The translations under genes were made by a program, and so were the position numbers. The notes under the pieces are model-generated. The model saw nothing but the letters and a program-made list of their open reading frames with translations. It made no database searches and was not told the origin of the DNA. Of a stretch of DNA of 64,000 nt, positions 2,074 through 52,039 are shown one piece after another. The DNA lies in the NCBI GenBank assembly GCA_963760125.1, contig CAVXBV010000001.1, positions 19,659 through 83,658 on the forward strand, read 5' to 3'. Numbering within the stretch: the first letter of the stretch is position 1; each line of letters begins with the position of its first letter. This DNA comes from an uncultured Actinomycetota bacterium. GTDB lineage: Bacteria; Actinomycetota; Actinomycetes; Mycobacteriales; SCTD01.

Positions 2074-3888
2074 ATGGGTAACCTTGTGGCAACAGCAGAG
2101 CTGAGGAGACAAGTCGTGGCGTTCAGCAGGATCGGTGTGGTCGGGCTCGGCACCATGGGTGCGGGCATTGCGGAGGTGCTCGCCCGGTCGGGCGTCGAGG
2201 TGATCGGCGTCGAGGTCGATGACGCCGGGCTCGAGCGGGCCCAGGGCCACCTGGACAGCTCGACCAGCCGGGCGGTCGCGCGCGGCAAGCTCACCGAGGC
2301 CGAGCAGGGCGAGCTGCTGGCACGGATCACGATGGGCACGGACCTCACGGCGGTGAAGGACTGCGAGCTGGTCATCGAGGCGATCCCCGAGCGCATGGAG
2401 CTGAAGAAGGCGCTGTTCGACGCGCTCGACGCGATGCTGCCTGCCGAGTCGATCCTCGCGACCAACACGTCGGCCCTGTCGGTCACCGAGCTCGCCACCA
2501 CGACCGGCCGTCCCTCCAAGGTCGTCGGCCTGCACTGGTTCAACCCCGCCCCCGTGATGGGGCTGGTCGAGGTGGTTCGCACGGTCGTCACCGACCCCTC
2601 TGTCGTCGAGCAGGTCCAGGGCCTGGTCGAGCAGGTCGGCAAGAAGGGCGCGACCGCCGGCGACCGGGCCGGGTTCATCTGCAACGCGCTGCTGTTCGGC
2701 TACCTCAACAACGCCGTGAAGATGTACGAGTCGCGGTACGCCTCCCGTGAGGACATCGACGCGGCGATGCGCTTCGGCTGCGGTCACCCGATGGGTCCCC
2801 TGGCGCTGCTCGACCTGATCGGCCTCGACTCGGCGTACGAGATCCTGGAGACGATGTACGCGCAGTCCCGCGACCACCGGCACGCGCCGGCGCCGTTGCT
2901 CAAGCAGTACGTCACCGCAGGTCTGCTCGGTCGCAAGACCGGTCGCGGTCTCTACACCTACGCCTCCCCGGACTCCTCCGAGGTCGTCGCCGACGCGGAC
3001 ACCCCCTCTGCCGCAGGCGATGTCGCCGCACGGCCGGTGACGAAGATCGGTGTGATCGGTACGGGCACCATGGCGACCGGCATCATCGAGGTCTGCGCCA
3101 AGGCGGGGTACGACGTCGTCTACCGCGCCCGGGGCGAGGACAAGGTCGCGGCTGTCGGCAAGAAGCTCGAGGGCTCGCTCGACAAGGCCCTGCAGAAGGG
3201 CAAGCTGACCGAGGAGGTCAAGGCCGCCACCCTCGCTCGCGTCTCGGGCACGACCGCGTTGGAGGACCTCGCCGACTGCGACCTGGTCATCGAGGCGGTC
3301 GCGGAGGAGCTGTCCATCAAGAAGGCGATCTTCTCCGCGCTCGACGACGTCATGAAGCCCGGCGCGATCCTGGCCACCACGACCTCCAGCCTGCCGGTCA
3401 TCGAGTGCGCCACGGCGACCTCACGCCCGGCCGACGTCATCGGGATGCACTGGTTCAACCCGGCGACCGTGATGAAGCTGGTGGAGGTCGTCCCGACCGT
3501 CACGACGGCACCTGACGTGATCGCGACGATCCTCGAGGTCTGCGGGCGGGTGAAGAAGCACCCGGTGCTGTGCGGCGACCGCGCCGGCTTCATCGTCAAC
3601 GCGCTGCTCTTCCCGTACCTCAACGACGGGGTCAAGATGCTCGAGGCGCACTACGCCGACATCGACGACATCGACTTCGCCATGACTGCCGGCTGTGGCC
3701 ACCCGATGGGACCGTTCGCGCTCATGGACGTCGTCGGCCTCGACGTGACGTTGGCGATCCAGCAGACCCTGTTCAACGAGTTCCGCGAGCCGGGCGACTC
3801 GCCCGCGCCGATGCTCGAGCACCTGGTGAAGGCCGGCTACCTCGGCCGCAAGACCGGTCGCGGTTTCCGCGACTACGCCCGGAAGTAG
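2074..3888 (+). CDS. 3-hydroxyacyl-CoA (3-hydroxybutyryl-CoA) dehydrogenase, two tandem full-length modules in one polypeptide
   Basis: There are two repeats of the same architecture. Module 1: IGVVGLGTMGAG...ATNTSAL...GLHWFNPAPVM...GDRAGFICNAL...GCGHPMGP. Module 2: IGVIGTGTMATG...ATTTSSL...GMHWFNPATVM...GDRAGFIVNAL...GCGHPMGP. The start is set at ATG 2074 because track start 1972 overlaps the nucS 3' end. Confidence 0.85.
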   Translation: MGNLVATAELRRQVVAFSRIGVVGLGTMGAGIAEVLARSGVEVIGVEVDDAGLERAQGHLDSSTSRAVARGKLTEAEQGELLARITMGTDLTAVKDCELVIEAIPERMELKKALFDALDAMLPAESILATNTSALSVTELATTTGRPSKVVGLHWFNPAPVMGLVEVVRTVVTDPSVVEQVQGLVEQVGKKGATAGDRAGFICNALLFGYLNNAVKMYESRYASREDIDAAMRFGCGHPMGPLALLDLIGLDSAYEILETMYAQSRDHRHAPAPLLKQYVTAGLLGRKTGRGLYTYASPDSSEVVADADTPSAAGDVAARPVTKIGVIGTGTMATGIIEVCAKAGYDVVYRARGEDKVAAVGKKLEGSLDKALQKGKLTEEVKAATLARVSGTTALEDLADCDLVIEAVAEELSIKKAIFSALDDVMKPGAILATTTSSLPVIECATATSRPADVIGMHWFNPATVMKLVEVVPTVTTAPDVIATILEVCGRVKKHPVLCGDRAGFIVNALLFPYLNDGVKMLEAHYADIDDIDFAMTAGCGHPMGPFALMDVVGLDVTLAIQQTLFNEFREPGDSPAPMLEHLVKAGYLGRKTGRGFRDYARK

Positions 3889-4175: not shown

Positions 4176-4289
4176 GGGTGTGACGCAGTCGCGTGATGCA
4201 CCTCTCCGGCTCGTGAGGCGACTGGCGGCGATCGGTCGCCGAACATGGAAGTGCCCGCAACGACACGGGTAGATCCCAGGAGACCCGCC

Positions 4290-4712
4290 GTGTTCACCTT
4301 CCGTCACGACCCCCGCCTCGATGTCCTTCGCCGCTTCGAGGTCTTCGCCGACCTCTCGCGCTCGGAGCTCTCGACCATCGCTTCCCTGATGACCGCTACG
4401 ACTGTTCCCGCGGGCAGCCCGCTGTGCGTCCAAGGCCGTCTCGGCGACCAGGTGTTCGCCGTCGTCGAGGGCGACGTCGCGATTTCGCAGAACGGCACCC
4501 CCGTCGCGATGGTGCAGGCCGGCGCTCTCGTCGGCGAGATGGCTGTCCTGGACAGCACCGTGCGGTCCGCGACGGCCGTCGCTCTGACCGACGCAGCCGT
4601 CCTGGTCATGAGCACCCGCGAGTTCCGTCAGCTGCTGCTCGACCACCCGCGGGTGGCGACGCGCATCCGCTCCCTGGGTGCCAGCCGCCGGCAGGACCTC
4701 TCCGCCGCCTAG
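4290..4712 (+). CDS. cyclic nucleotide-binding domain protein (stand-alone cNMP domain)
   Basis: FADLSRSELSTIASLMTATTVPAGSPLCVQGRLGDQVFAVVEGDVAI...GALVGEMAVLDSTVRSATAVALTDAAVLVMSTREFRQLL is a typical cNMP-binding beta-barrel with the G-E-(L/M)-A...R-(S/T)-A motif. GTG 4290 is preceded by AGGAG at a 7-nt spacing. Confidence 0.65.
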   Translation: MFTFRHDPRLDVLRRFEVFADLSRSELSTIASLMTATTVPAGSPLCVQGRLGDQVFAVVEGDVAISQNGTPVAMVQAGALVGEMAVLDSTVRSATAVALTDAAVLVMSTREFRQLLLDHPRVATRIRSLGASRRQDLSAA

Positions 4713-4738: not shown

Positions 4739-4822
4739 GCACAACAGCAACGCCGGTCCTGTGGTGACGGTCCACCCGAGCGTGCGCTGACATGCTGAGC
4801 AGCGCCGAGGTTGCCGTTGTGC
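4739..4822 (+). repeat. ~84-nt inverted-arm element, copy A (solo)
   Basis: 5' arm GCACAACAGCAAC (4739-4751) and 3' arm GTTGCCGTTGTGC (4810-4822) are complementary at 12/13 positions. The same arms at the same spacing recur at 46008-46090 and, inverted, at 47214-47297. An extra arm-like GTTCCCGTTGTGC lies at 4836-4848. Confidence 0.6.
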
Positions 4823-4929
4823 TTGAGTCGCAGGGGTTCCCGTTGTGCCGGCGGCGCGTTCCGGTGCCGGGCCGGGGAGGGCCAGCAACCGGCTCGGGGG
4901 CGAAGCGGCCACCAGTAGGGTCGTGGATC

Positions 4930-5643
4930 GTGCCGGACATCCTCGCCAACACCGTGCTCCCAGCCGACCGGCGGCCCGTGACGCTCCAGACGGCGGACGG
5001 ACTGAACCTGATCGGCGAGCTCGCCCTTCCGGACGGCAGGCCTCCGGTGGCCACGGTCATCTGCCTGCACCCGTTGCCCAGCGGCGGCGGGATGATGGAC
5101 AGCCACGTGCTGCGCAAGCTCGCCTGGCGCCTTCCGGCCCTGGCCGACCTCGCGGTCTTGCGGTTCAACACCCGCGGCACCACCAGCGAGGGAGGGACGA
5201 GCGACGGGGAGTTCGGGCACGCGGTCACCGAGCAGTATGACGTCGCGGCGGCCCTCGACCTCTGCGAGGCCTGGGACCTGCCGACGATCTGGCTCGTGGG
5301 GTGGAGCTTCGGTACCGACCTCGCGCTCATGCACGGGCTGGACCCCAGCGTGGTCGGCGCCATTCTCCTGAGCCCGCCGCTGCGGTTCTCCGGCCCCGAG
5401 CACCTGCAGGCCTGGGCGGAGAACGGCAAGCCGCTGTTCGCGCTCGTGCCGGAGCACGACGACTACCTCCAGCCGCCGGAGGCCAAGAAGCGGTTCTCGG
5501 TCGTCCCGCAGGCGGTCGTCCAGGGCGTCGAGGGCGCCAAGCACCTGTGGGTGGGTCGGGCCGAAGAGGTGCTCGACGAGATCGTCCGGATCGTCAACCC
5601 GGCGGCGTACCCGCTGCCGACCAGCTACGAGGAGACCGCATGA
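4930..5643 (+). CDS. alpha/beta hydrolase
   Basis: Track ORF 4792..5643: ...VATVICLHPLPSGGGMMDSHVLRKLA...IWLVGWSFGTDLAL... (a GxSxG-type nucleophile elbow, GWSFG). The first ~45 codons of the track ORF run through repeat element A, so I prefer GTG 4930. The start is uncertain. Confidence 0.65.
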   Translation: MPDILANTVLPADRRPVTLQTADGLNLIGELALPDGRPPVATVICLHPLPSGGGMMDSHVLRKLAWRLPALADLAVLRFNTRGTTSEGGTSDGEFGHAVTEQYDVAAALDLCEAWDLPTIWLVGWSFGTDLALMHGLDPSVVGAILLSPPLRFSGPEHLQAWAENGKPLFALVPEHDDYLQPPEAKKRFSVVPQAVVQGVEGAKHLWVGRAEEVLDEIVRIVNPAAYPLPTSYEETA

Positions 5644-39301: not shown

Positions 39302-40081
39302 GTGAACATCGTCGTACTGGTGAAGCAGGTGCCCGACACCTGGGCCGAGCGCAAGCTCAACGAGTCGGACAAGACGTTGGACCGCGCGTCGGTCGACGTC
39401 GTCATGAACGAGATCGACGAGTACGCCGTCGAGGAGGCGCTCCGCCTCAAGGAGGCCCAGGGCGGCGAGGTCACGATCCTCACCATGGGCCCGGACCGGG
39501 CTGTCGAGACCATCCGCAAGGCGCTGTCGATGGGCGCCGACAAGGCCGTCCACCTCAGCGACGACGCCCTCAAGGGCAGTGACGCCGTACAGACGTCCGC
39601 GGCCATCGCGAAGGTCCTCGAGGGCCTGGAGTTCGACCTGGTCATCGCCGGGTCCGAGGCCACCGACTCGCGCATGGCCATCATGGGTGCGCTGCTGTCC
39701 GAGCGCCTCGGCCTGCCGCAGCTGACCGGAGCCCGCAAGCTCACGATCGAGGGCACCACCGCCACGATCGAGCGGCAGACCGACAACGGGTACGCCGTGG
39801 TCACCGCCGCGCTCCCCGCCATCGTCTCGGTCGTCGAGAAGATCAACGAGCCCCGCTACCCGTCCTTCAAGGGCATCATGGCTGCGAAGAGCAAGCCGCT
39901 CGACACCAAGACCCTGGCCGACACCGGCCTCGACGCCGGCACCGTGGGGCTCGCCTCCGCGCCGTCGCAGGTCGTGTCGTTCTCGAACAAGCCGCCGCGC
40001 CAGGCGGGTCAGATCGTCAAGGACGAAGGTGACGGCGGCGCCAAGGTCGCCGAGTTCCTCGCGTCGCAGAAGTTCGTCTGA
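39302..40081 (+). CDS. etfB: electron transfer flavoprotein beta subunit
   Basis: VNIVVLVKQVPDTWAERKL...NEIDEYAVEEALRLKE...ILTMGP..A.ETIRKALSMGADKAVH...PSFKGIMAAKSKP. GTG 39302 lies downstream of AAGGAG. Confidence 0.85.
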   Translation: MNIVVLVKQVPDTWAERKLNESDKTLDRASVDVVMNEIDEYAVEEALRLKEAQGGEVTILTMGPDRAVETIRKALSMGADKAVHLSDDALKGSDAVQTSAAIAKVLEGLEFDLVIAGSEATDSRMAIMGALLSERLGLPQLTGARKLTIEGTTATIERQTDNGYAVVTAALPAIVSVVEKINEPRYPSFKGIMAAKSKPLDTKTLADTGLDAGTVGLASAPSQVVSFSNKPPRQAGQIVKDEGDGGAKVAEFLASQKFV

Positions 40082-40095
40082 GAGGCAAGGAAAAC

Positions 40096-41049
40096 ATGTC
40101 TGAGGTCCTCGTTCTCATCGAGCACGTCGAGGGAACCCCCAAGAAGGTCAGCTTCGAGCTGCTCGCGCTCGCCAAGACGCTCGGCAGCCCGTCGGCTGTC
40201 GTGCTCGGCGCCAACGCGGCCAAGGCCGTCGACGCGCTGAAGGCGTTCGGCGCCGACAAGCTCTACATCGACGAGTCGTCCGACCACGACGACTTCCTCG
40301 CCGGCCCGAAGGCGGCGCTGCTCGCGCAGCTCGTCGGCTCCGCGAGCCCGGTCGCCGTCCTCGTCCCGGCCACGGCCGAGGGCAAGGAGGTCGCGGCGCG
40401 CCTCGCCGTCAAGACCGGTGGCGGCCTGCTCACCGACGCGGTCGGTGTCACGACCGAGCTCGTCGCGGAGCAGCCGATCTTCGGTGGCTCGGTCGTCGTG
40501 TCGTCCAAGATCGCGACCGGTACGCCGATCATCGCCGTCCGGGCGAACTCCACCGCCCCCGTCGAGGGAGCGGGTGCCGGAACCGTCGAGAACGTCACGG
40601 TCACCGCGTCCGACGCCGACAAGGCCGCTCGGGTGACCGAGCGCGTGGTCGAGGCCAAGGGCGGTCGCCCCGACCTCGGGGAGGCGAGCATCGTCGTCTC
40701 GGGTGGTCGCGGTGTCGGCTCGCCGGAGAACTTCTCCATCATCGAGGCGCTCGCGGACTCCCTCGGCGCGGCTGTCGGCGCCTCGCGCGCCGCCACCGAC
40801 GCCGGCTGGTACCCGCACCAGAACCAGGTAGGACAGACCGGCCGCACCGTGTCACCGCAGCTCTACATCGCGGCCGGCATCTCCGGAGCCATCCAGCACC
40901 GCGCCGGCATGCAGACCTCGAAGACGATCGTGGCCATCAACAAGGACCCCGAGGCGCCGATCTTCGAGCTCGCCGACTTCGGCCTCGTGGGCGACCTCAA
41001 CACGGTCGTCCCGGCGTTGACCGAGGAGATCACCAAGCGCAAGGGCTAG
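40096..41049 (+). CDS. etfA: electron transfer flavoprotein alpha subunit
   Basis: [10 protein letters not shown]...[62 protein letters not shown] is the FAD-binding signature. Confidence 0.9.
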
Positions 41050-41062
41050 ACCCCCGAACGTC

Positions 41063-41099
41063 CGAGAGGCCCGTACCGCTCGCCGGTACGGGCCTCTCG
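41063..41099. terminator. bidirectional hairpin between convergent etfA and SDR genes
   Basis: CGAGAGGCCCGTACCG-ctcgc-CGGTACGGGCCTCTCG is a 16-bp perfect stem in the 71-nt convergent intergenic gap. Confidence 0.6.
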
Positions 41100-41120
41100 C
41101 GTGTCATCGGAGGAGCGCTC

Positions 41121-42023
41121 CTAGAGGTCGTAGGTGACGCCGGTCAGCTCCTCGCTGACCTCCCACAGGCGCGCGGCATCCTCGAGGCTCTTGGCCAGCC
41201 GCGTCGTCGTCGCCTTCTTCGGGTGGCCGCGCAGGTCGAGCAGGTGGGGGCCGTAGTAGTCGCCGCCCTGCACGTCGGGCATCGTGGCGGCGTACAGCTG
41301 CGGCCAGGCGCCCTGCTTGTCGCTCTGCGCCAGGACCCGGTTGCCGACCTTCATGAGCCCCTCGAAAAACGCCTGACCCTGGCCCTGCTGCAGGTGGGTG
41401 GACGCATACCCGGGGTGGGCCGCGGCGGCTAGCAGGGTGCCGTGCGCACGTCGATCGAGCTCCGCCGTGAAGAGCAGGTTCGCCAGCTTGGACTGGCCGT
41501 AGCGCCGCCAGCGGTGGTAGCTGCGGTCGGCCGGGAGGTCGGTGAAGTCCATGCGCCCGATCACGTGGGCGCCGCTCGCCACCGTGATGACGCGCGGTGC
41601 GCTCCCCTGGCGCAGCAGGGGGAGCAGTCGGCCGGTCAGGGCGAAGTGGCCGAAGTGGTTGGTGCCCAGCTGCAGCTCGAAGCCGTCCACTGTGCGTCCC
41701 TGCGGGACGGCCATGATGCCCGCGTTGTTGACCAGCAGGTCAAGCTGCGTCACCCGCTCGCCGACCTCCTTGACCGCCTGCTCCACGCTCGCCAGCGAGG
41801 CGAGGTCCATGGCCACGAGCTCGACGTTCGCGCCGGTCGCCTCCGCGCGGACCCGGCGGAGAGCGTCCTGCGCCTTGGTCGGGTTGCGGCACGCCATGAG
41901 GACGCGTGCTCCCGCACGGGCGAGCTCGACCGTCGTCCAGAAGCCGAGGCCGGAGTTCGCTCCCGTCACGAGAGCCGTACGGCCGGTCTGGTCGGGCAGG
42001 TCGGTGGGGGTCCAGCGCGTCAT
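41121..42023 (-). CDS. SDR family oxidoreductase (retinol-dehydrogenase/WWOX-like subgroup)
   Basis: GRTALVTGANSGLGFWT...LLVNNAGIM...YGQSKLANLLF (YxxxK). Confidence 0.8.
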   Translation of the reverse strand: MTRWTPTDLPDQTGRTALVTGANSGLGFWTTVELARAGARVLMACRNPTKAQDALRRVRAEATGANVELVAMDLASLASVEQAVKEVGERVTQLDLLVNNAGIMAVPQGRTVDGFELQLGTNHFGHFALTGRLLPLLRQGSAPRVITVASGAHVIGRMDFTDLPADRSYHRWRRYGQSKLANLLFTAELDRRAHGTLLAAAAHPGYASTHLQQGQGQAFFEGLMKVGNRVLAQSDKQGAWPQLYAATMPDVQGGDYYGPHLLDLRGHPKKATTTRLAKSLEDAARLWEVSEELTGVTYDL

Positions 42024-42061
42024 GCCGCCAGCCTGCCACGTCGCCTCCCTAGACTCCGGGC

Positions 42062-43459
42062 ATGCCTTCGTGGGATCGCAAGAACGACAAGCAGCAGGCC
42101 CAGGCGCAGGGACGTGCCCTCAAGGTCCAGGTCGTCGACGCCGTAGGACCCTTCTCGCCGTACTGGCGCGACCGGCTCAAGGCGCTCGGTACCTCTGCCG
42201 GCACCCTCACGACGGTGGAGGCCCTCGCGGCTCTCCCGGCCGTGGGTGAGCGCGACCTGTGCCCCGACGGCGACCCAGCGCGGGCGGCGGGACTCGTGCT
42301 GCAGGCCGGCGAGTCCGGCTGGGCGCTGCACACCGAGGGGCCGCGACTGCGTCGCGCGCTGAGCAGCCGGCTGGTCCGGTCCGGCTCGTACCGCGCCCTC
42401 GTCGAGGCGGACACCCGACCCACCTCCTTCGTGTACGCCGGCCTGGGGCTCCGGTTCCCGCTGGCCAGCACGCGCAGCGACCTCGACGTCGTGGCCCGCG
42501 CGGGCGCGCGGTTGTGGCAGGTCCTGGGGCTGACCCGCTCAGCCGTCCTCGTGTCCGGCCTGCCGTCGGGGCGCACCGCCTCGTCCCAGGCGCTCGAGCT
42601 CGCGGCCCTCGGCGCCGGCTCTCCGGCGCTGGCGGTCTCCGACGACGTCCACGCGTTGACGGACGCCCTCGCGCTGCTTCCCGCGACGGTGCTGGCGCTG
42701 CCGGTCCATCGGGCCGCTGACCTGCTCGACGACCTCGACGAGGCCGGCGCCGCCCTCGGCGCCGTCACGACCCTGCTGCTGGTCGGTGCACCGTCGGCGG
42801 AGGAGCGCGCCGACGTCGCTGCGGCACTCACCCGTTCCGGTCTGACGGCCAAGGCGCTGGCGGTGCACGTGCCCGACGGGCACCGGCTCATGTGGGGCGA
42901 GTGCGCGGAGGGCGGGCCTGGCCTGCACACCTACCCCGACCTCGAGCTCGTCCAGTTGGTCGATCCGGAGACGGGGGAGGCTGGCCGGTCGTCCGGCCCG
43001 CAGGAGGTCGTGCTGACCCAGCTCGGGCTGCGGGGCAGCGCCCTGCTCCGCTGGCGCACCGCCGATCTCGCCGACGAGGTCGCGACCCGCGCCTGCCCCG
43101 GGTGCGGCCGCACCGTCCCGCGCGTGGTCGGGCTGCAGCGCCGGGCGCTCGTTCCCGAGCTCGAACTGCGCGCCGGACGCCGCGCTGTCGACCTGCGCGG
43201 CGTCTCGGGGGCCCTACTGGGGCGCTCGGACGTCGTGGACTGGCGGGTCGTGGTGGTGCCGAGCGCGCGCGGCGCGCACACCGACGTGGTCGTCCACGTC
43301 GTTCCCGGCGAGGGCGAGGAACCGGCCGACGTCGCGGTCGCCGTCGCCCGGGACGTCCGTGCCGCGACGGGGTTCTTGCCGTCGCAGGTCGTGGTCGCCG
43401 AGGCCGGAGACCTGCCCGCGGGCGAGGCCCTGAGCGGTCGGTTGTTGGCGAGCGCCTAG
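42062..43459 (+). CDS. PaaK / coenzyme F390 synthetase-like adenylate-forming-fold protein with a divergent nucleotide motif
   Basis: PaaK-like N-terminus (PFSPYWRDRLKALG...VEALAALPAVGERDL) and C-terminal blocks (LHTYPDLELVQLVDPETGE...VVLTQLGLRGSALLRWRTADLADEV..ACPGCGRTVPRVVG). I cannot find the canonical SSGTTGKP loop where it is expected (TRPTSFVYAGLG). Confidence 0.6.
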   Translation: MPSWDRKNDKQQAQAQGRALKVQVVDAVGPFSPYWRDRLKALGTSAGTLTTVEALAALPAVGERDLCPDGDPARAAGLVLQAGESGWALHTEGPRLRRALSSRLVRSGSYRALVEADTRPTSFVYAGLGLRFPLASTRSDLDVVARAGARLWQVLGLTRSAVLVSGLPSGRTASSQALELAALGAGSPALAVSDDVHALTDALALLPATVLALPVHRAADLLDDLDEAGAALGAVTTLLLVGAPSAEERADVAAALTRSGLTAKALAVHVPDGHRLMWGECAEGGPGLHTYPDLELVQLVDPETGEAGRSSGPQEVVLTQLGLRGSALLRWRTADLADEVATRACPGCGRTVPRVVGLQRRALVPELELRAGRRAVDLRGVSGALLGRSDVVDWRVVVVPSARGAHTDVVVHVVPGEGEEPADVAVAVARDVRAATGFLPSQVVVAEAGDLPAGEALSGRLLASA

Positions 43460-43555
43460 GTCGCTGCGCTGGGCGGTGACGCGCCCCGTACTCGTTGCAC
43501 GCTCTCCCCCGCAGGCGGACGCACCCTCCGCGCCGGCCGCGGCTACGCTCGACCC

Positions 43556-44710
43556 GTGGCCTATCTCGACCATGCGGCCTCGACGCCCATGCTCCCCGAG
43601 GCGGTCGCGGCTGTCGCCGAGCAGATGGCGAAGGTCGGCAACGCCAGCTCCCTGCACACCTCCGGTCGACGGTCCCGTCGTACGGTCGAGGAGTCGCGCG
43701 AGGCGGTGGCCGCAGCGCTCGGGGCGCGACCGTCCGAGGTGCTGTTCACCGCCGGCGGGACCGAGAGCGACAACCTCGCCGTCAAGGGCCTGTTCTGGGC
43801 GCGCCGTGCCGCGGACCCCCGCCGCACCCGGGTGCTCGCCTCCGGCGTCGAGCACCACGCCGTGCTCGACGCCGTGCTCTGGCTGATGACCCACGAGGGC
43901 GCGGAGATCACCTGGCTCGAGGTCGACGCGCTCGGCCGCGTCGACCCGGCCCAGCTGGCCGCGGAGCTCGACGACCGCGTCGCCCTCGTGACCGTGATGT
44001 GGGCCAACAACGAGGTCGGCACCGTTCAGGACGTCGCAGCCCTGGCGGCCGTCGCTCACGACGCCGGGGTGCCCTTTCACAGCGATGCGGTGCAGGCCGT
44101 CGGCGTCCTGCCGGTGGACGTCGCGGCCAGTGGCGTCGCCGCGCTGACGCTGTCCGGTCACAAGCTCGGCGGCCCGTTGGGCGTCGGGGCGCTGGTCCTG
44201 GGCCGCGACGTGGCCTGCACACCGCTGCTGCACGGGGGAGGGCAGGAGCGCGACGTCCGGTCCGGCACCCTCGACACCCCGGCCATCGCCGGCCTCGCGG
44301 TGGCGACGACCCTGGCGGTCCAGCGGCAACGGGAGACCGCGGCCCGGCTCTCGGGGCTCCGGGACGACCTGGTCACGCGGGTGCTCGAGGCCGTGCCGGA
44401 CGCGGTGTTCAACGGCGATCCGATCCGCCGCCTGCCCGGCAACGCTCACTTCTCCTTCCCTGGCTGCGAGGGCGACTCGCTGCTGCTCCTGCTCGACGCC
44501 AAAGGGGTCGAGGTGTCGACCGGCTCCGCCTGCTCCAGCGGGGTGGCGCGGCCCTCCCACGTGCTGGTCGCCATGGGTCAGGGCGAGGAGCAGGCCCGTT
44601 CCTCCTTGCGCTTCTCCCTGGGGCACACGTCCACGGCCGAGGACGTGGCGGCGGTGCTCGAGGTGCTGCCGGCCGTGGTGGAGCGCGCCCGCCGCGTCCC
44701 CGTGCGGTGA
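43556..44710 (+). CDS. iscS: cysteine desulfurase (class V aminotransferase, IscS/NifS-like)
   Basis: [11 protein letters not shown]...[10 protein letters not shown]...HSDAVQAVG...[15 protein letters not shown] (PLP Lys) ...GSACSSG (catalytic Cys). Confidence 0.85.
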
Positions 44711-45765
44711 GGCTGCTCGCGGCGCTCTCCGGCGGCGTCGACTCCGCGGTCGCTGCTGCCCTGGCGGTCGAGGCGGGTCATGACGTGACCGCCGTCCACC
44801 TCGCCCTGTCCGAGGCGCCCGCCGAGCTGCGCACCGGATCGCGCGGCTGCTGCTCGCGTGAGGACGCGCGGGACGCCGCCCGCGTGGCCGACGTGCTGGG
44901 GATCCCCTTCTACGTCTGGGATCTCGCCGAGCGGTTCCGCGAGGACGTGATCGACGACTTCGTCGCGGAGTACGCCGCCGGCCGGACCCCCAACCCCTGC
45001 TTGCGCTGCAACGAGAAGGTGAAGTTCACCGCCGTGCTGGACCGCGCCCTCGCGCTCGGCTTCGACGCGGTGGTCACCGGTCACCACGCCCGGCTGCGCG
45101 GTGGCGTGCTCTCCCGGTCCGTGGACGATGCCAAGGACCAGAGCTACGTGCTCGGGGTGCTGACCGCGGCGCAGCTCGGCGCCACCGTGCTGCCGCTCGG
45201 GGACCTGACCAAGGACGAGGTCCGCGCCGCCGCCCGCTCCCGGGGGCTCGCGGTCGCCGACAAGGCCGATTCCCATGACATCTGCTTCATCGCCGACGGA
45301 GACACCACGGGCTTCCTGCGCGACCGCCTGGGGTCCCAGCCGGGTCCTGTCGTCGACGCCCTCACCGGCGACGTGCTCGGTCACCACGACGGCGCGTACG
45401 GCTACACCGTGGGCCAACGCCGGGGGCTCGCCCTGACCGTGCCGGCGCTCGACGGGCGACCCCGGTACGTCCTGTCGATCGAGCCGGTCAGCCGCACGGT
45501 GACCGTCGGTCCGGCGGAGGCGCTCGAGGTGTCGGTCGTGCGGACGGGTGCGCCGGTGTGGTCCTCGCCCCGGCAGCTACCGCTGGACTGCGAGGTGCAG
45601 CTGCGCGCCCACGGGATGGTCCACGGCTGCACGGTCACCGGCGACGAGGGCGGGTGGTCGCTGTCGTTGACCACGCCCGCCCGCGGTCTGGCTCCGGGGC
45701 AGGCGGCGGTGCTGTACGACGCTGACACGGTGCTCGGCTCCGCCACAGTCGTCGCCACCTCCTGA
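44707..45765 (+). CDS. mnmA: tRNA 2-thiouridine(34) synthase
   Basis: The GTG overlaps the iscS stop (GTGA). [17 protein letters not shown] (PP-loop) ...[16 protein letters not shown]...KDQSYVL...KADSHDICF. Confidence 0.9.
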
Positions 45766-45800
45766 TCCCGCACCCCGCCCGGCGGTCCTTGCTGGCCGCA

Positions 45801-45982
45801 CCGTCCGGGCCTGCGCGTCCGGCCTGCGCCGTCGGGACTGCGCGTTCGGCCTACGCCGTCGGGTCCACCGGTCGGCCTGCGCCGTCGGGACTGCGCGTCC
45901 GGCCGCGTCGTCGGACTGCGCGTCCGGCCTGCGTCACTGGGTCCACCGGTCGTGGGCCGCCCGGCGTCCGCGAACTGCGCGG
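45801..45982. repeat. degenerate 13-14-nt-period tandem array (left flank of the DUF559 cassette)
   Basis: About 13 consecutive units of the type CTGCGCGTCCGGC / CTGCGCCGTCGGGA / TCCACCGGTCGGC. There are also larger repeated blocks (45838-45876 vs 45916-45957; 45824-45850 vs 45877-45903). Non-coding by context. Confidence 0.7.
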
Positions 45983-46007
45983 ATGGACCGCCCGGGAGCG
46001 GTGCCGA

Positions 46008-46090
46008 GCACAACAGCAACCCCGGTCGCCCAGGAGCCACGGTGCTGAGCGTAGAGCTGCCAGGTCAGGTCACCGTGGTTGCACTTGTGC
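46008..46090 (+). repeat. ~84-nt inverted-arm element, copy B
   Basis: 5' arm GCACAACAGCAAC (46008-46020), followed by CCCGGTC. 3' arm GTTGCACTTGTGC (46078-46090), 11/13 complementary. Total length 83 nt. Confidence 0.6.
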
Positions 46091-46148
46091 TTCTGTGTGG
46101 ACGCCGGCTCCTCGACGTCATCGTCGGGGGCCAGCGAGCGAATCGAGA

Positions 46149-47123
46149 TCAGGCGGCGCAGGCCAGGCTCAGGCAGTCCCGGATCACGGCGAGTACGTAC
46201 TTCTTGCTGTCACGCACGTCCTTCCAGCTGAAGCGGACCACCCGCCAGCCCAGGCGTTGAAGGGCGTTGTCGCGGTGGCGGTCCTTCGTGCGCCGGTCCT
46301 CAGGGTCGTGCCACCGGTGGCCGTCACACTCGACGACCAGTCCGTGCTCGACGAAGCAGAAGTCCACCCGACCCACCCATCGTCCCTGGCGATCGGTCAC
46401 GACGTACTGGCTGGTCGGCCGCATCCCGTTGCGGTGCAGGAGATAGCGGAGAGCCGACTCGAGCACAGAACCGGAGTGCGCGTCGATCAGCTGCACCAGG
46501 CGACGCAGCCTGCCTCGCCCCACGCTGTCGCGGCGGTCGTTGGCTGCGCGGACGAGGTCCTCCTCGCTGATCAACCCCCGCCGCAGAGCGCTGTCCGCGG
46601 CGACGACCGCCTCCAGCATCGGGCGGCTCAGGCAGCAGTCGACCACCGTGGCCAGCGGTGGGGTCACGGGCAGGGGCTCGAGCTCCAGCACGCTGACGTC
46701 CAGACGGGTGGTCTGTTCGCTGCAGCGTACGGAGACCCCGGGTAGGCGCACCCGTGTGCGCGAGCGTGGGACGCGGCACTCGACGGCAGTCGGTTCGACA
46801 AGCAGGTCCATCGCCCAGAGCACGGCCGCGGTGCGCCGGTCAGCCACGGCCCCGGGCCCTGCGGCGAGCAAGGCGGCGCGGACCTGCGCGACGTACGGGC
46901 CGTCGGGTCTGCCGTCCCGAAGCAGGTGTCGGCCACGTGGTGGCAGCGGACGCAGCGCGTAGACACCCCGGCGCACACGGTGCACCAGCCGCTCGCGTAA
47001 CGCCCGCTCCAGCAGCCCTCTGGTCACGCCCTCGGACGCCAGGTGGGCGCGGGTGGTCACGAGCTGCCGGGAAGCAGGGCAGGCGCGGTCGAGGTCGTCG
47101 TCGAGTGAACGGGCACGAGCCAT
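46149..47123 (-). CDS. AbiEi-like wHTH N-terminal domain + DUF559 (Vsr/restriction-endonuclease-like fold) protein
   Basis: C-terminus: VDFCFVEHGLVVECDGHRWHDPEDRRTKDRHRDNALQRLGWRVVRFSWKDV, the DUF559 signature. N-terminus: QLVTTRAHLASEGVTRGLLERALRERLVHRVRRGVYAL, an AbiEi_4-type wHTH. 324 aa, ATG at 47123. Confidence 0.75.
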   Translation of the reverse strand: MARARSLDDDLDRACPASRQLVTTRAHLASEGVTRGLLERALRERLVHRVRRGVYALRPLPPRGRHLLRDGRPDGPYVAQVRAALLAAGPGAVADRRTAAVLWAMDLLVEPTAVECRVPRSRTRVRLPGVSVRCSEQTTRLDVSVLELEPLPVTPPLATVVDCCLSRPMLEAVVAADSALRRGLISEEDLVRAANDRRDSVGRGRLRRLVQLIDAHSGSVLESALRYLLHRNGMRPTSQYVVTDRQGRWVGRVDFCFVEHGLVVECDGHRWHDPEDRRTKDRHRDNALQRLGWRVVRFSWKDVRDSKKYVLAVIRDCLSLACAA

Positions 47124-47213
47124 GCGCTCCAGCCTGTCCGTCCGTCACCGCCCTTGGCGTGCTCGGCGGTGATCTGTGGATGACGACGTGCCGGTGCCCA
47201 CCAGCCCTTCGCG

Positions 47214-47297
47214 GCATAAAGGCAACGCGGGGGCGCACTCGGAGGTGGACGCGAGCCTGATTGCCCGGGCGTGCGCGGAGCGGCGTTGCTGTTGTGC
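47214..47297 (-). repeat. ~84-nt inverted-arm element, copy C (inverted relative to copy B)
   Basis: Plus-strand GTTGCTGTTGTGC (47285-47297) is the exact reverse complement of the copy A/B 5' arm. The partner arm is GCATAAAGGCAAC (47214-47226), 10/13. Read on the minus strand it begins GGCACAACAGCAACGCCGC, which matches copy A GGCACAACAGCAACGCCGG at 18/19. Confidence 0.6.
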
Positions 47298-47306
47298 CTC
47301 TCCAGT

Positions 47307-47440
47307 GGCGCAGAAACGTCGGTGGCGTAGGAACGTCGGTGGCGCAGGAACGTCGGGTGGCGCAGGAAGGTCGGTGCACGAACGTCGGGTGGCGCAGGAA
47401 GGTCGGCCAAGAAGGTCGGGTGGCGCAGGAAGGGCCCGTG
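47307..47440. repeat. 17-18-nt tandem array (right flank of the DUF559 cassette)
   Basis: The unit GGCGCAGGAACGTCGG(G)T repeats about 7 times with variants (GGCGCAGAAACGTCGGT, GGCGTAGGAACGTCGGT, GGCGCAGGAAGGTCGGT and others). It starts 10 nt beyond the outer arm of copy C. Confidence 0.7.
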
Positions 47441-47561
47441 GGGCTGGGGAGCTCCAGGTGCCCACGGGGACCCCAGTCGGCCGGGGCGCGATGGCGAGCG
47501 ACCGTCGTGGTGCACCCGCAACAGCGGCACGAGGCAGCGGACCGACTTGTAGGCTCAACGC

Positions 47562-47926
47562 ATGGCTCCCTCTGACGACGTGCAGCTCACCGACCTCGAG
47601 GTCATCGCGCAGTTCAGCCTGGCGGTACGAGGGGCAACGGCGAGCCGCGGCGACGTGATCGCTGCTCTGGAAGCCGATCTGGCCTTCCTAGCCGGTGGCG
47701 GGACCAGCAGGGGCAGGGCCAAGCCTGCGAGCAACGCCGGCCCCTCGGCCACGCAGGCCCCCGATGAGGCGACCAGCGCCCCCGGCAAGGCGACCAGCGC
47801 CCCCGGCAAGGCGACGAGCGCCCCCGGCAAGGCGACGAGCGCCCCCGGCAAGGCGGCGAGGCGAACCGTCGCGCCGGCCAAGGCGTCGGCCAAGAAGGCT
47901 GCGACGAAGGCTGCGCGCACCCGCAC

Positions 47927-47930
<4 letters not shown>
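47562..47930 (+). CDS. hypothetical protein with (ATSAPGK)x4 repeat and Lys/Ala-rich histone-H1-like tail
   Basis: 122-aa ORF: MAPSDDVQLTDLEVIAQFSLAVRG...EATSAPGKATSAPGKATSAPGKATSAPGKAARRTVAPAKASAKKAATKAARTRT. Third-position GC is high. TAGGCT (47550-47555) lies 6 nt upstream of the ATG, compatible with a leaderless mRNA. The stop overlaps the next start (GTGA). Confidence 0.55.
47769..47852 (+). repeat. four tandem 21-nt repeats inside a CDS
   Basis: GCGAC(C/G)AGCGCCCCCGGCAAG x4 (units at 47769, 47790, 47811 and 47832), in frame, encoding ATSAPGK x4. Confidence 0.9.
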
Positions 47931-50997
<3,067 letters not shown>

Positions 50998-50998
50998 G

Positions 50999-51637
50999 TC
51001 ACGCCGTCACGGTCGCCGTGATGCCGGCCAGGTGCGCCAGGCGCAGCACCTCCGACGCGCGGAACCTCGGACCGCCGGCGCGACCGACGAGGATCACCCG
51101 CGTCGGCCGACCGACTGGTGCGGCGACGAGCTCGGTGCCGAGGGCGTCCCAGCGCTCAGGGACCCACTCCTCATCGGAGTCCATGCGGCGGGCCGAGGCC
51201 AGCGGCAACCAGGGAAGGCCGACCCCCGCGAGGTCGGGTGCGCCGGGGCTGGCCGCCAGGACCTCACCGTCGTCGAGGACCAGCGCCCAGCCGGCGCGGA
51301 AGACACCCGGGGCGAGGTCCACCAGCAGCTGGACGGCGTCCGACGGGGCAGCGGCGAGCTCTTCCACCAGCTCGAGGTCGCGGTGCAGGTCGTCCGCGCC
51401 GAGGTAGGGCCGCAACGACTCCACGATGACCCCGGGGACGGACTGCGCGGACGTGATGAGCACGTCGGCCAGCCCTCCGACCGGCAGCTGGACCAGCAGG
51501 TCGTCGACCGCGCCGTCCGGCCCGCGTTCGACGACGTCGAGGCTCACGATGTCTGCGCCGACCTCACCGAGTGCCGTGGCGACGGCTCCGAGCATGCCCG
51601 GACGGTCGGGGAGCACGACGCGCAGCAGGTAGGACAT
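50999..51637 (-). CDS. ACT domain-containing protein (Rv3013-like)
   Basis: MSYLLRVVLPDRPGMLGAVATALGEVGADIVSLDVVERG is an ACT fold signature. 212 aa from ATG 51637. It sits between ligA and gatC, as I recall for mycobacteria. Confidence 0.65.
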   Translation of the reverse strand: MSYLLRVVLPDRPGMLGAVATALGEVGADIVSLDVVERGPDGAVDDLLVQLPVGGLADVLITSAQSVPGVIVESLRPYLGADDLHRDLELVEELAAAPSDAVQLLVDLAPGVFRAGWALVLDDGEVLAASPGAPDLAGVGLPWLPLASARRMDSDEEWVPERWDALGTELVAAPVGRPTRVILVGRAGGPRFRASEVLRLAHLAGITATVTA

Positions 51638-51736
51638 GGCCCCATCATGGCCGCTGTTCATGGCGCCTGTGTTTCCGCGCGGTGACGTCCACGGCCGGTT
51701 CCCTAGACTCCGGGGCGACCCCCTGGAGGCCCACGC

Positions 51737-52039
51737 ATGCCGGAGATCACCCGCGAGCAGGTCGCGCACCTCGCGCGCCTGTCCCGCCTGGCCCTCGACG
51801 ACGGAGAGCTCGACCGGCTCGCCGGCGAGCTCGACGTGATCCTCGGGGCCGTCGCGCAGATCGCTGAGGTCACCGATGCAGCCGACGTGCCCCCCACCTC
51901 GCACGCGGTCCCTCTGCTGAACGTCACCCGCCCCGACGTGGTGATGCCCTCTCTCGCCCCGGAGCAGGCCCTGTCCGGCGCGCCGTCGGCGGAGGACGGT
52001 CGCTTCCGGGTCCCGCAGATCCTGAGCGACGAGGCATGA
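51737..52039 (+). CDS. gatC: Asp-tRNA(Asn)/Glu-tRNA(Gln) amidotransferase subunit C
   Basis: [39 protein letters not shown]...; 100 aa. Its stop overlaps the gatA start. Confidence 0.9.

What the first reader, a model, noticed from the sequence alone, without database searches (positions are those of the whole stretch)
45766..47561. Symmetric, repeat-bounded cassette carrying a lone wHTH+DUF559 endonuclease-fold gene between mnmA and the ligA block
This 1.8-kb gap between two housekeeping blocks contains only one protein gene but has a strikingly symmetric architecture:
- a tandem array (45801-45982);
- an 84-nt element in + orientation (46008-46090);
- the AbiEi-like wHTH + DUF559 gene on the minus strand (46149-47123);
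- the same 84-nt element inverted (47214-47297);
- a second, different tandem array (47307-47440).

The outer ends of the two elements are exact 13-nt inverted repeats (GCACAACAGCAAC at 46008; GTTGCTGTTGTGC at 47285-47297). They delimit a 1,290-bp unit.

DUF559 proteins have a Vsr/restriction-endonuclease-like fold and are often multi-copy in actinobacterial genomes, yet no mobility mechanism or function is established for them.

I infer two possible readings:
- The unit is a mobile or formerly mobile cassette whose nuclease-fold protein acts on its own terminal arms.
- The arms are operators for the wHTH domain.

Two points count against recent transposition. I see no target-site duplication next to the arms (left flank ...GGTGCCGA, right flank CTCTCCAG...). 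There is also no transposase or integrase.
Basis: partly seen in the sequence, partly recalled or inferred. Interest (0 to 1): 0.7.

Follow-up and report, generated by a model that had tools for sequence, protein, structure and literature searches.

The report
Nuclease gene flanked by cognate repeats
A lone gene for a repressor-like DNA-binding protein fused to a nuclease sits between two housekeeping operons and, here and in every relative examined, is bracketed by inverted-repeat pairs that differ from locus to locus but match on both sides of each gene, so the protein probably recognises its own flanks and this is not a recently mobile cassette.

Summary
The arrays, the gene and the exact 13-nt inverted repeat are real. 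The "same 84-nt element, inverted" is not. Units B (46008-46090) and C (47214-47297) share only their ends. Each unit is a pair of inverted arms (GCACAAnnGCAAC ... GTTGCnnTTGTGC) around a spacer of about 57 bp that is neither conserved nor structured. A third unit lies at 4739-4822.

The protein is a complete AbiEi-type module (wHTH plus C-terminal domain) fused to a Vsr/DUF559 nuclease whose catalytic residues are conserved.

Orthologues down to 54% identity occupy the same mnmA/ligA gap, so this is not a recent insertion. All 11 family loci examined have an inverted-repeat pair upstream, and all 10 with downstream sequence have a second pair at the stop codon. The two pairs share an arm motif that differs between loci.

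Characterised AbiEi monomers bind 23-bp inverted repeats in their own promoters. The best reading is therefore that the arms are the protein's cognate binding sites, autoregulating and insulating the gene. The downstream pair, the third site, the arm-like arrays and the intact nuclease go beyond known AbiEi biology. This is a new variant of a known kind. Binding is untested.

The parts
45794..45952 (.). Tandem array 1 (period 27/78, sub-period 13), between the mnmA stop codon (45765) and unit B
   Evidence: TRF. Absent from the relatives L004 and L005. Not covered by the Logan contigs. No significant similarity to the arm PWM.
46008..46090 (.). Unit B, the downstream inverted-repeat pair. Arms are 46008-46020 (GCACAACAGCAAC) and 46078-46090 (GTTGCACTTGTGC), with a 57-bp spacer. 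It lies 59-141 bp beyond the stop codon.
   Evidence: The orthologous unit is at L004 3034-3129. The spacer is not structured (z -0.6 and 0.45).
46149..47123 (-). Gene for a 324-aa fusion protein: AbiEi-type wHTH (about residues 7-62), AbiEi C-terminal domain (about 63-215) and Vsr/DUF559 nuclease (about 216-318)
   Evidence: Pfam; PADLOC AbiEi; AlphaFold2 model with pLDDT 93.9; Foldseek matches 6y8q, 1zel, 3r3p and 3hrl; PDB sequence matches 3hrl and 3r3p. Invariant residues include E222, D254, E265, D267, H272 and D281.
47174..47180 (-). Conserved TCCACAG motif 57 nt upstream of the start codon; candidate promoter or leader element
   Evidence: TCCACAR lies between the upstream unit and the start codon in all 11 loci. 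It is at -57 or -56 in six of them.
47214..47297 (.). Unit C, the upstream inverted-repeat pair. Arms are 47214-47226 (GCATAAAGGCAAC) and 47285-47297 (GTTGCTGTTGTGC), with a 58-bp spacer. It lies 91-174 bp upstream of the start codon.
   Evidence: The arms are invariant in the three-way alignment with L004 and L005, while the rest of the intergenic DNA does not align.
47305..47433 (.). Tandem array 2 (period 17/32). Its units resemble the inner 14 nt of an arm (CAGGAACGTCGGTG against CAGCAACGCCGGTG).
   Evidence: TRF. Sub-PWM ranks are 8, 25, 28, 89 and 176 of 128,000 positions (post hoc, and the units are not independent). One 17-nt unit is missing in a contig of run X1.
4739..4848 (.). Unit A, a third inverted-repeat pair. 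Arms are 4739-4751 and 4810-4822, with an extra half-site at 4836-4848. It lies between a cNMP-binding-domain gene (4245-4712) and an alpha/beta-hydrolase gene (4930-5643).
   Evidence: It is conserved at the orthologous position in the genome of L004 (L015 1739-1821) with a diverged spacer.

Best explanation
The locus is a vertically inherited one-gene module. Its product fuses a complete AbiEi-type DNA-binding repressor/antitoxin (wHTH plus C-terminal domain) to a Vsr/DUF559-type nuclease.

The '84-nt elements' are not copies of one element. Each is a pair of inverted arms around a free spacer of about 57 bp. The arm core is 13 bp, with weaker conservation out to about 21 bp here; relatives have arms of 22-28 bp.

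These arms are most likely the cognate sites of the protein's own wHTH, with one monomer per arm as in AbiEi. One pair sits 91-174 bp upstream of the start codon and one 59-141 bp beyond the stop. Occupancy of the four sites would repress the gene and shield it from transcription entering from the neighbouring operons. It would also hold the nuclease on defined DNA. The same protein probably also binds unit A upstream of a hydrolase operon. The tandem arrays are lineage-specific, unstable amplifications next to the sites.

Shown here: the domain composition, the conserved synteny, the arm motifs that differ between loci but match on both sides of each gene, the unconstrained spacers and the conservation of unit A.

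Inferred: binding, repression or insulation, and nuclease activity.
For: Protein:
- It is a full AbiEi module fused to a nuclease. PADLOC AbiEi covers residues 23-201 (E 5e-13).
- Foldseek matches AbiEi 6y8q (E 9e-6, TM 0.62 on the target), Rv2827c 1zel, I-Bth0305I 3r3p (TM 0.80) and 3hrl (TM 0.78).
- AbiEi and Rv2827c bind 23-bp inverted repeats within about 130 bp upstream of their own genes and autorepress (PMC3985639, PMC7319586).

Architecture across the family:
- All 11 loci have an upstream inverted-repeat pair at roughly -190 to -55. All 10 loci with downstream sequence have a second pair at or overlapping the stop codon.
- When the arm is defined from the upstream region alone, it recurs on both strands downstream beyond all 400 shuffles in 9 of 10 loci.
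- The arm motif differs between loci: GGCACAACAGCAAC, ATGCCAAGTGG, GATGCACGAGAG, ACCTGCCAGCTGGGAC and others.

Constraint:
- Between the window and L004, housekeeping genes are about 84% identical at the nucleotide level. The intergenic DNA does not align except for the arms and the TCCACAG motif.
- Spacers are neither conserved nor more structured than shuffles (z about 0). Arm mismatches show no strand bias. This fits half-sites rather than a hairpin.
- The predicted recognition helix (residues 33-46) is the most variable structured segment, at 0.29 mean pairwise identity against 0.56 for the nuclease domain. It is nearly identical among proteins that share arms.
- Unit A is conserved at its orthologous site.
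Against: - No binding data exist.
- The arms are 45-67 bp apart, against 3-13 bp in the characterised AbiEi operators.
- The downstream pair usually lies between convergent gene ends, where there is no promoter to repress. A classical operator role does not explain it.
- The invariant catalytic residues of the nuclease have no role in a pure repressor model.
- The match between recognition helix and arms is confounded by phylogeny. Among the four rpsA/coaE orthologues no simple helix-to-arm code is visible.
- The upstream inverted repeats taken alone are only marginally better than shuffled sequence (13-15 of 16 against a shuffle maximum of 13-14).
Confidence: 0.55

Rival explanations
1. Selfish nuclease-and-repeat system, analogous to REPIN-RAYT or to a hairpin-ended IS. 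The flanking units are substrates of the encoded nuclease. Nicking or cleavage at the arms would drive local duplication, gene conversion between the two flanks and occasional spread of solo units or of the whole cassette.
For: - The gene is single-copy in the window, vertically inherited, and bracketed by lineage-specific inverted-repeat doublets, with an extra unit elsewhere.
- In L010 the two units are direct 96-nt repeats at 79% identity.
- Duplication debris lies next to the units. L013 has six arm-like 19-mers every 31 bp and a threefold 87-nt repeat. Unit A and L010 carry extra half-sites. Array 2 varies in copy number within the population.
- Family members occupy several different housekeeping gaps, each with its own arms: mnmA/ligA, rpsA/coaE, next to murB, and a mshA/gpm1-like gap.
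- The catalytic residues are conserved, and the fold is shared with a homing endonuclease.
Against: - There is no HUH, DDE or recombinase domain, and no target-site duplication.
- All three units of the window that could be checked are at the same positions in a relative at about 84% nucleotide identity.
- No extra arm copies occur in the 3-10-kb flanks of the other loci that were scanned.
- No excision joints were seen (low depth).
- All five mnmA/ligA gaps seen are occupied.
- The spacers are unstructured, so a hairpin substrate is not indicated.
Confidence: 0.2
2. The units are structural cis elements independent of the encoded protein, such as bidirectional terminators, insulators or a REP-like family bound by a host factor. 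On this view they merely tend to flank a gene wedged between operons.
For: - The whole units fold somewhat better than shuffles (z -1.1 to -2.4).
- On the sense strand, a terminator-like hairpin at 46035-46020 uses the arm as its T-rich tail.
- Unit A is not next to a DUF559 gene.
Against: - The spacers are not structured once the arms are removed.
- Sequence, not just pairing, is conserved in the arms between genomes.
- In most other lineages the arms are not T-rich.
- Each of the 11 loci has its own motif, shared by its two flanks, which a general host factor would not explain.
- There is no Rfam match.
- In L014, L017 and L018 the downstream unit is kept even where it overlaps coding sequence.
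Confidence: 0.12
3. Chance symmetry in GC-rich intergenic DNA.
For: - Inverted 12-mers with up to one mismatch and a 30-90-bp spacer occur about 40 times in the window.
- A best-14-mer comparison of the upstream and downstream flanks does not exceed shuffles.
Against: - The exact 13-mer occurs three times. Matches with up to 2 mismatches number 7 against 0.77 expected.
- The arms are conserved in three further genomic sites of a relative.
- Nine of 10 loci pass an unbiased upstream-to-downstream motif test at 0 of 400 shuffles.
Confidence: 0.01

Closest known systems
AbiEi antitoxin/autorepressor of type IV AbiE toxin-antitoxin systems (S. agalactiae AbiEi, PDB 6y8q; M. tuberculosis Rv2827c, PDB 1zel)
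   Same: - Two-domain wHTH plus CTD module.
- Monomers recognise inverted repeats of about 23 bp lying within about 130-190 bp upstream of their own gene. The arms here and in relatives are 13-28 bp.
- Each protein has its own non-cross-reacting repeats (PMC7319586).
   Different: - No AbiEii/DUF1814 nucleotidyltransferase gene is present at any of the 11 loci.
- A Vsr/DUF559 nuclease is fused to the C-terminus instead.
- The arms are separated by 45-67 bp, not 3 or 13 bp.
- A second pair lies beyond the stop codon.
- A further pair lies at another locus.
- Some lineages have arm-like tandem arrays.
Vsr / DUF559 nucleases, including the EDxHD homing endonuclease I-Bth0305I (PDB 3r3p) and NGO0050 (PDB 3hrl)
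   Same: The C-terminal domain has the same fold (TM 0.78-0.80) and the conserved D...ExDG..H pattern.
   Different: - It is not inside an intron or intein.
- It carries an AbiEi module for targeting.
- No link to a cytosine methyltransferase was examined.
- Its activity is unknown.
REPIN-RAYT systems (my own knowledge: Nunvar 2010; Bertels & Rainey 2011; Ton-Hoang 2012)
   Same: A single-copy, vertically inherited gene is flanked by lineage-specific inverted-repeat doublets about 80-110 bp long, with further copies elsewhere in intergenic DNA.
   Different: - The enzyme is a wHTH-guided PD-(D/E)xK-like nuclease, not an HUH Y1 transposase.
- Only three units were seen in 64 kb, and all are positionally conserved in a relative.
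- The spacers are not structured.
Integron attC sites and IS200/IS605 subterminal palindromes
   Same: Imperfect inverted repeats of 60-140 bp, conserved only at their ends, flank a gene.
   Different: - No IntI, TnpA or TnpB is present.
- The ends match RYYYAAC/GTTRRRY at only 6 of 7 positions.
- The position is syntenic across genera.
- The arm motif is specific to each gene rather than to each genome.

Membership tests
AbiE type IV toxin-antitoxin system | Two-domain AbiEi (COG5340) protein: N-terminal wHTH plus C-terminal domain | tested here: met
   PADLOC AbiEi HMM positions 19-180 of 184 match residues 23-201 (E 5e-13). Foldseek matches 6y8q (E 9e-6) and 1zel.
AbiE type IV toxin-antitoxin system | Adjacent AbiEii (DUF1814) nucleotidyltransferase toxin gene in the same operon | tested here: not met
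   The neighbours are mnmA and a small ORF followed by a Meth_synt_2-like gene and ligA. No DUF1814 gene is called at any of the 11 loci.
AbiE type IV toxin-antitoxin system | Inverted repeats of about 23 bp overlapping the promoter and bound by AbiEi, giving negative autoregulation | tested here: inconclusive
   Inverted arms of 13-28 bp are present upstream in 11 of 11 loci. They are spaced 45-67 bp apart and duplicated downstream. The promoter is not mapped (one search found none). Binding cannot be tested with these tools.
DUF559 / Vsr-like PD-(D/E)xK nucleases | Profile match above the curated threshold, and the Vsr-like fold | tested here: met
   Pfam DUF559 scores 40.0 bits (cut-off 20.6) and MTES_1575 42.1 bits (cut-off 38.2). 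Foldseek TM is 0.80 to 3r3p and 0.78 to 3hrl.
DUF559 / Vsr-like PD-(D/E)xK nucleases | Conserved catalytic acidic and histidine residues | tested here: met
   D254, E265, D267, H272 and D281 are invariant in 44 sequences. They align with the conserved D / ExDG / H positions of 3hrl. Catalysis itself was not tested.
Vsr mismatch-repair endonuclease proper | Membership of the Vsr equivalog and partnership with a Dcm-type methyltransferase | tested here: not met
   NCBIfam TIGR00632 scores 21.4 bits against a cut-off of 97.85. No methyltransferase is adjacent. The wider genome was not examined.
REPIN-RAYT | RAYT gene, an HUH Y1 transposase related to IS200/IS605 TnpA | tested here: not met
   Pfam, PADLOC, NCBIfam and Foldseek give only AbiEi and Vsr/DUF559 matches.
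REPIN-RAYT | A population of tens to hundreds of dispersed repeat doublets in the genome | tested here: inconclusive
   Three units occur in 64 kb. No extra copies occur in the flanks of L007, L010, L011, L013 and L014. The whole genome is not available. Pattern scans of the GTDB representative genomes and of JGI metagenomes found no related copy.
   There are no flanking direct repeats and no recombinase domain. The same gap is occupied in five genomes down to 54% identity. No skipping joints were seen in four runs at low depth. Empty sites could not be surveyed.
Known RNA families (Rfam 15) | Covariance-model match | tested here: not met
   No relevant hit at E <= 1 over 40000-52000.

The most novel reading that the evidence does not exclude
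AbiEi-DUF559 genes and their flanking repeat pairs may form a previously unrecognised class of persistent selfish or domesticated elements in Actinobacteria, functionally analogous to REPIN-RAYT. A wHTH-guided Vsr-like nuclease would nick its own cognate inverted-repeat units. That would produce concerted evolution of the two flanks, arm-derived tandem arrays and occasional solo units such as unit A. Because the gene sits beside essential genes, the module would be very hard to lose.
Probability: 0.17. Interest if true: 0.85.

Novelty: new variant of a known kind. Interest (0 to 1): 0.6.

Why it matters
This protein architecture is very common and uncharacterised. The query finds 16,496 clusters at 50% identity with E <= 1e-3 and 3,972 with E <= 1e-10. 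Databases label these proteins loosely as 'very-short-patch-repair endonuclease' or 'AbiEi antitoxin domain protein'.

The comparative pattern found here gives each family member a predicted cognate DNA site next to its own gene. That turns 'function unknown' into a direct experiment: test binding and cleavage on the gene's own flanks. It also supplies many natural protein-site pairs for working out the specificity of AbiEi-type wHTH domains.

The pattern also suggests that an AbiEi antitoxin/repressor module has been re-used to control or target a fused nuclease, with no nucleotidyltransferase toxin. And it shows a gene held for long periods between essential operons with binding sites on both sides, an arrangement not described for AbiE systems in the literature I could search.

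Tried and rejected
- Rfam scan at E-value threshold over 40000-52000: nothing relevant.
- Pattern scan of the GTDB representative genomes: only unrelated AT-rich palindromes in an Abditibacterium MAG and a chance hit. The source species is not in that collection.
- Pattern scan of JGI metagenome contigs: one unrelated long palindrome.
- tblastn against plasmids: only distant hits to the DUF559 domain.
- RNA runs: none available. The DNA runs are shallow soil metagenomes kept only as contigs.
- Conserved hairpin or RNA structure: rejected. Spacer z-scores are about 0 and arm mismatches show no wobble or strand bias.
- 'Both units are direct repeats' as a general rule: demonstrable only in L010; orientation is undetermined elsewhere.
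- A best-14-mer comparison of the upstream and downstream flanks: uninformative in 70% GC DNA. I replaced it with a test in which the motif is defined from the upstream side only.
- Full-length arm PWM: does not score the arrays. Only the inner 14 nt resemble array 2, and array 1 not at all.
- A simple code linking recognition helix to arm sequence: not visible among the rpsA/coaE orthologues.
- Sigma-70-type promoter scan: nothing found. Readings of the arms or of the TCCACAG motif as ECF-type promoter elements were considered by eye and left unresolved.
- Literature searches for the 13-mer, DUF559, MTES_1575/AbiEi_4 and COG5340: no description of this architecture.
Full report
**What is in the sequence.** The window is 71% GC actinobacterial DNA from a soil metagenome. 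The closest named relatives are Frankiales and Mycobacteriales MAGs.

Between the mnmA stop codon (45765) and a small ORF that leads into a Meth_synt_2-like gene and ligA (from 47562) there is one gene. It lies on the minus strand at 46149-47123 and encodes 324 aa.

TRF confirms two non-coding tandem arrays, at 45794-45952 (period 27/78) and 47305-47433 (period 17/32). They are the only sizeable non-coding arrays in the 64 kb.

The exact 13-mer GCACAACAGCAAC at 46008 and its complement at 47285-47297 are real and non-random. Matches with up to 2 mismatches number 7 against 0.77 expected.

The two '84-nt elements' are not copies of one sequence.
- They align only at their ends.
- Their interiors show no similarity in either orientation (z -0.3 and +0.5).
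- Each unit is bounded by inverted copies of the 13-mer: B has 46008-46020 and 46078-46090; C has 47214-47226 and 47285-47297.
- A third unit with the same ends and the same 84-nt length lies at 4739-4822, with an extra half-site at 4836-4848. It sits between a cNMP-binding-domain gene and an alpha/beta-hydrolase gene.

Each unit is therefore a pair of inverted arms around a spacer of about 57 bp. Fourteen half-sites from the window and close relatives give the consensus (C)GGCACAACnGCAAC, followed by a weaker snsGGTG. The arm may thus extend to about 21 bp.

**The protein.** Pfam gives MTES_1575 and DUF559 for residues 250-316. PADLOC's AbiEi model covers residues 23-201 (E 5e-13).

An AlphaFold2 model built from 44 homologues is confident (pLDDT 93.9, pTM 0.90). 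Foldseek matches its first ~210 residues to the AbiEi antitoxin (6y8q) and to Rv2827c (1zel). It matches the C-terminal domain to the I-Bth0305I homing-endonuclease catalytic domain (3r3p, TM 0.80) and to NGO0050 (3hrl, TM 0.78). The PDB sequence search agrees.

D254, E265, D267, H272 and D281 are invariant across 44 family members, so the nuclease looks catalytically intact. The protein is a complete AbiEi (wHTH plus CTD) fused to a Vsr/DUF559 nuclease. No AbiEii/DUF1814 gene is nearby.

**Comparative evidence at this locus.** Proteins at 77% (L004), 75% (L005), 55% (L012) and 54% (L007) identity lie in the same gap next to mnmA, with ligA on the other side where the contig reaches it.

Between the window and L004 the flanking housekeeping genes are about 84% identical at the nucleotide level, and the gene itself about 75%. 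The intergenic DNA does not align by BLAST. Yet L004 has both units with the same arms: 1818-1901 upstream and 3034-3129 downstream. L005 has the upstream one with a decayed second arm.

In the three-way alignment of the upstream regions, the only invariant blocks are the two arms and a TCCACAGAT motif. Neither L004 nor L005 has the arrays.

Unit A is also conserved in the L004 genome. L015 1739-1821 reads GCACAACTGCAAC...GTTGCTGTTGTGC, is 83 nt long, lies in the same intergenic position, and has a diverged spacer.

These are old, positionally stable, constrained sites. They are not recent insertions.

**Comparative evidence across the family.** The more distant orthologues in the same gap also have a unit on each side, but with a different arm. 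L007 has GCATGCCAAGTGG...CCACTTGGCATGC upstream and CCATGCCGAGTGG...TCACTTGGCATGC downstream. L012 has the same type.

Paralogues at other loci behave likewise:
- L010, next to murB, has arms GATGCACGAGAG.
- L011, in a gap whose neighbours resemble the mshA/gpm1 region, has arms ACCTGCCAGCTGGGAC.
- Four members of a second orthologous group lie in the rpsA/coaE gap (L013, L014, L017, L018), each with its own arms of 18-28 nt.

In total, 11 of 11 loci have an upstream pair at roughly -190 to -55. All 10 loci with downstream sequence have a second pair at the stop codon. In L013, L014, L017 and L018 this second pair is kept even though it overlaps coding sequence.

A naive best-14-mer comparison of the flanks is not informative in this GC-rich DNA. 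I therefore defined the arm from the upstream region alone and asked whether it recurs on both strands downstream. Nine of 10 loci exceed all 400 dinucleotide shuffles.

All 11 loci also carry TCCACAR between the upstream pair and the start codon. It is exactly 57 or 56 nt upstream in six of them.

**Half-sites or hairpin?** The whole units fold slightly better than shuffles, but that comes from the arms.
- The spacers alone have z-scores around 0 on both strands.
- The spacers are not conserved between orthologous units.
- Spacer length varies from 45 to 67 bp between loci.
- Arm mismatches show no preference for G-U-compatible changes on either strand.
- Rfam has no match.

This favours two protein-recognised half-sites over a conserved RNA or DNA hairpin, although a cruciform is not excluded.

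**How it most likely works.** Characterised AbiEi is monomeric. One monomer binds each of two 23-bp inverted repeats (23-3-23) over its own promoter and represses it. Rv2827c binds two such pairs, with 13-bp gaps, within -1 to -131. Neither protein binds the other's repeats (PMC3985639, PMC7319586).

By homology, and because the arm motifs differ between loci but match within each locus, the arms here are most likely the cognate sites of the encoded protein. In line with this, the predicted recognition helix (residues 33-46) is the most variable structured segment. Its mean pairwise identity is 0.29, against 0.56 for the nuclease domain. It is nearly identical among proteins that share arms. 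That link is confounded by phylogeny, and no simple code emerges among the rpsA/coaE orthologues.

I infer that occupancy of the upstream pair autoregulates the gene. The downstream pair usually lies between convergent gene ends, where there is no promoter. It would act as a loop anchor or roadblock that insulates a potentially harmful nuclease gene wedged between essential operons. Unit A, 82-191 bp upstream of a hydrolase/SDR operon, would be an additional target.

Binding, repression and catalysis are all inferences.

**What this model leaves open.** It explains neither the intact nuclease nor the duplication debris around the sites:
- L013 has six arm-like 19-mers (2-3 mismatches) every 31 bp just upstream of its unit, and a threefold 87-nt repeat downstream.
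- L010's two units are direct 96-nt repeats at 79% identity.
- Unit A and L010 carry extra half-sites.
- The window's array 2 resembles the inner 14 nt of an arm at 12 of 14 positions. This is suggestive only.
- Array 2 varies by one 17-nt unit in the sampled population.

These features, together with the family's habit of sitting in different housekeeping gaps with gene-specific arms, keep alive a selfish reading. In that reading the nuclease acts on its own flanks, as in REPIN-RAYT. I rate it at about 0.2.

Against it:
- There is no transposase-type domain.
- There is no target-site duplication.
- All checkable units are positionally conserved.
- The 3-10-kb flanks of the other loci scanned hold no extra copies.
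- No excision joints were seen (shallow data).

**Comparison with what is known, and verdict.** The module works most like an AbiEi autorepressor with its inverted-repeat operators. It fails the membership test for an AbiE toxin-antitoxin system, because there is no AbiEii. It differs from that system in the fused nuclease, the wide spacer, the downstream pair, the extra site and the arrays.

It is not a Vsr proper (21 bits against a cut-off of 98). It is not a RAYT, an IS200/IS605 element, an integron cassette or a known RNA.

Literature searches found no description of AbiEi-DUF559 fusions or of their flanking repeats. The architecture is nevertheless abundant, with 3,972 clusters at 50% identity at E <= 1e-10.

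I classify the finding as a new variant of a known kind, of moderate-to-high interest. It converts a large orphan family into a directly testable protein-site system. Its actual function remains unproven.

Noticed in passing
window 47174-47180 (minus strand); L004, L005, L007, L010, L011, L012, L013, L014, L017, L018 upstream regions: A TCCACAR motif lies between the upstream repeat pair and the start codon in all 11 family loci, whatever the arm sequence. It is exactly 57 or 56 nt upstream of the start in six of them. It may be a promoter or leader element, or a site for the conserved part of the protein.
   Followed up: partly
L013 10001-10987, L014 10001-11008, L017 3001-3984, L018 142-1200: A second orthologous group of the same protein family sits in the rpsA/coaE gap in four unrelated assemblies. 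L011 lies between YbjN-like plus glycosyltransferase genes and a His_Phos_1 gene, and L010 next to murB. The family repeatedly occupies gaps between housekeeping genes.
   Followed up: partly
L012 597-610: A window-type half-site (GCACAACGGCAAG, 12 of 13 identical to an arm of unit A) sits 15 bp upstream of L012's own, different (ATGCCAAGTGG-type) unit. It has no partner arm. It could be a relic of an older arm type or a site for a paralogue.
   Followed up: no
L014 10957-11045; L017 3936-4030; L018 1139-1241; L013 10940-11214: In the rpsA/coaE group the downstream repeat pair overlaps the 3' end of the gene. In L014 it also overlaps the start of coaE. The pair is thus kept even where intergenic space is lacking.
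   Followed up: partly
window 47315 (array 2), runs X1 and X2: A contig of run X1 lacks one 17-nt unit of array 2. Run X2 has A>G at 47216, inside an arm. Array 1 is not assembled in any of the four runs. This indicates population-level instability of the arrays.
   Followed up: partly
window 46020-46035 (minus strand): On the sense strand of the gene, a terminator-like GC hairpin is followed by the arm sequence TTGCTGTTGT acting as a T-rich tail. In this lineage the distal arm of unit B could double as an intrinsic terminator.
   Followed up: no
window 47757-47860: A coding tandem repeat of 21 nt (4.5 copies, 97% matches) encodes APGKATS repeats in the small ORF 47562-47930 that precedes the Meth_synt_2-like gene and ligA. 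This ORF varies greatly in length among relatives (63-158 aa).
   Followed up: no
L001 4644-4724 and L003 6641-6718 (Abditibacterium MAG chromosome): Two near-identical AT-rich long palindromes (...GCACAAAAGCAACAAAA...TTTTGTTGCTTTTGTGC...) matched the degenerate search pattern by chance. They look like an unrelated REP-like repeat family of that genome.
   Followed up: no
L006 about 2640-2930: The only JGI metagenome hit is a low-GC contig with a long, near-perfect inverted duplication centred on the match. It is unrelated to this locus and may be an assembly artefact.
   Followed up: no
L011 7055-7272: A 15-nt tandem array (GCGCGGGGGACGGGC) directly follows the downstream unit and is interrupted by a scaffold gap of Ns. 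This is another case of an array abutting a unit, but its units do not resemble the arm.
   Followed up: no
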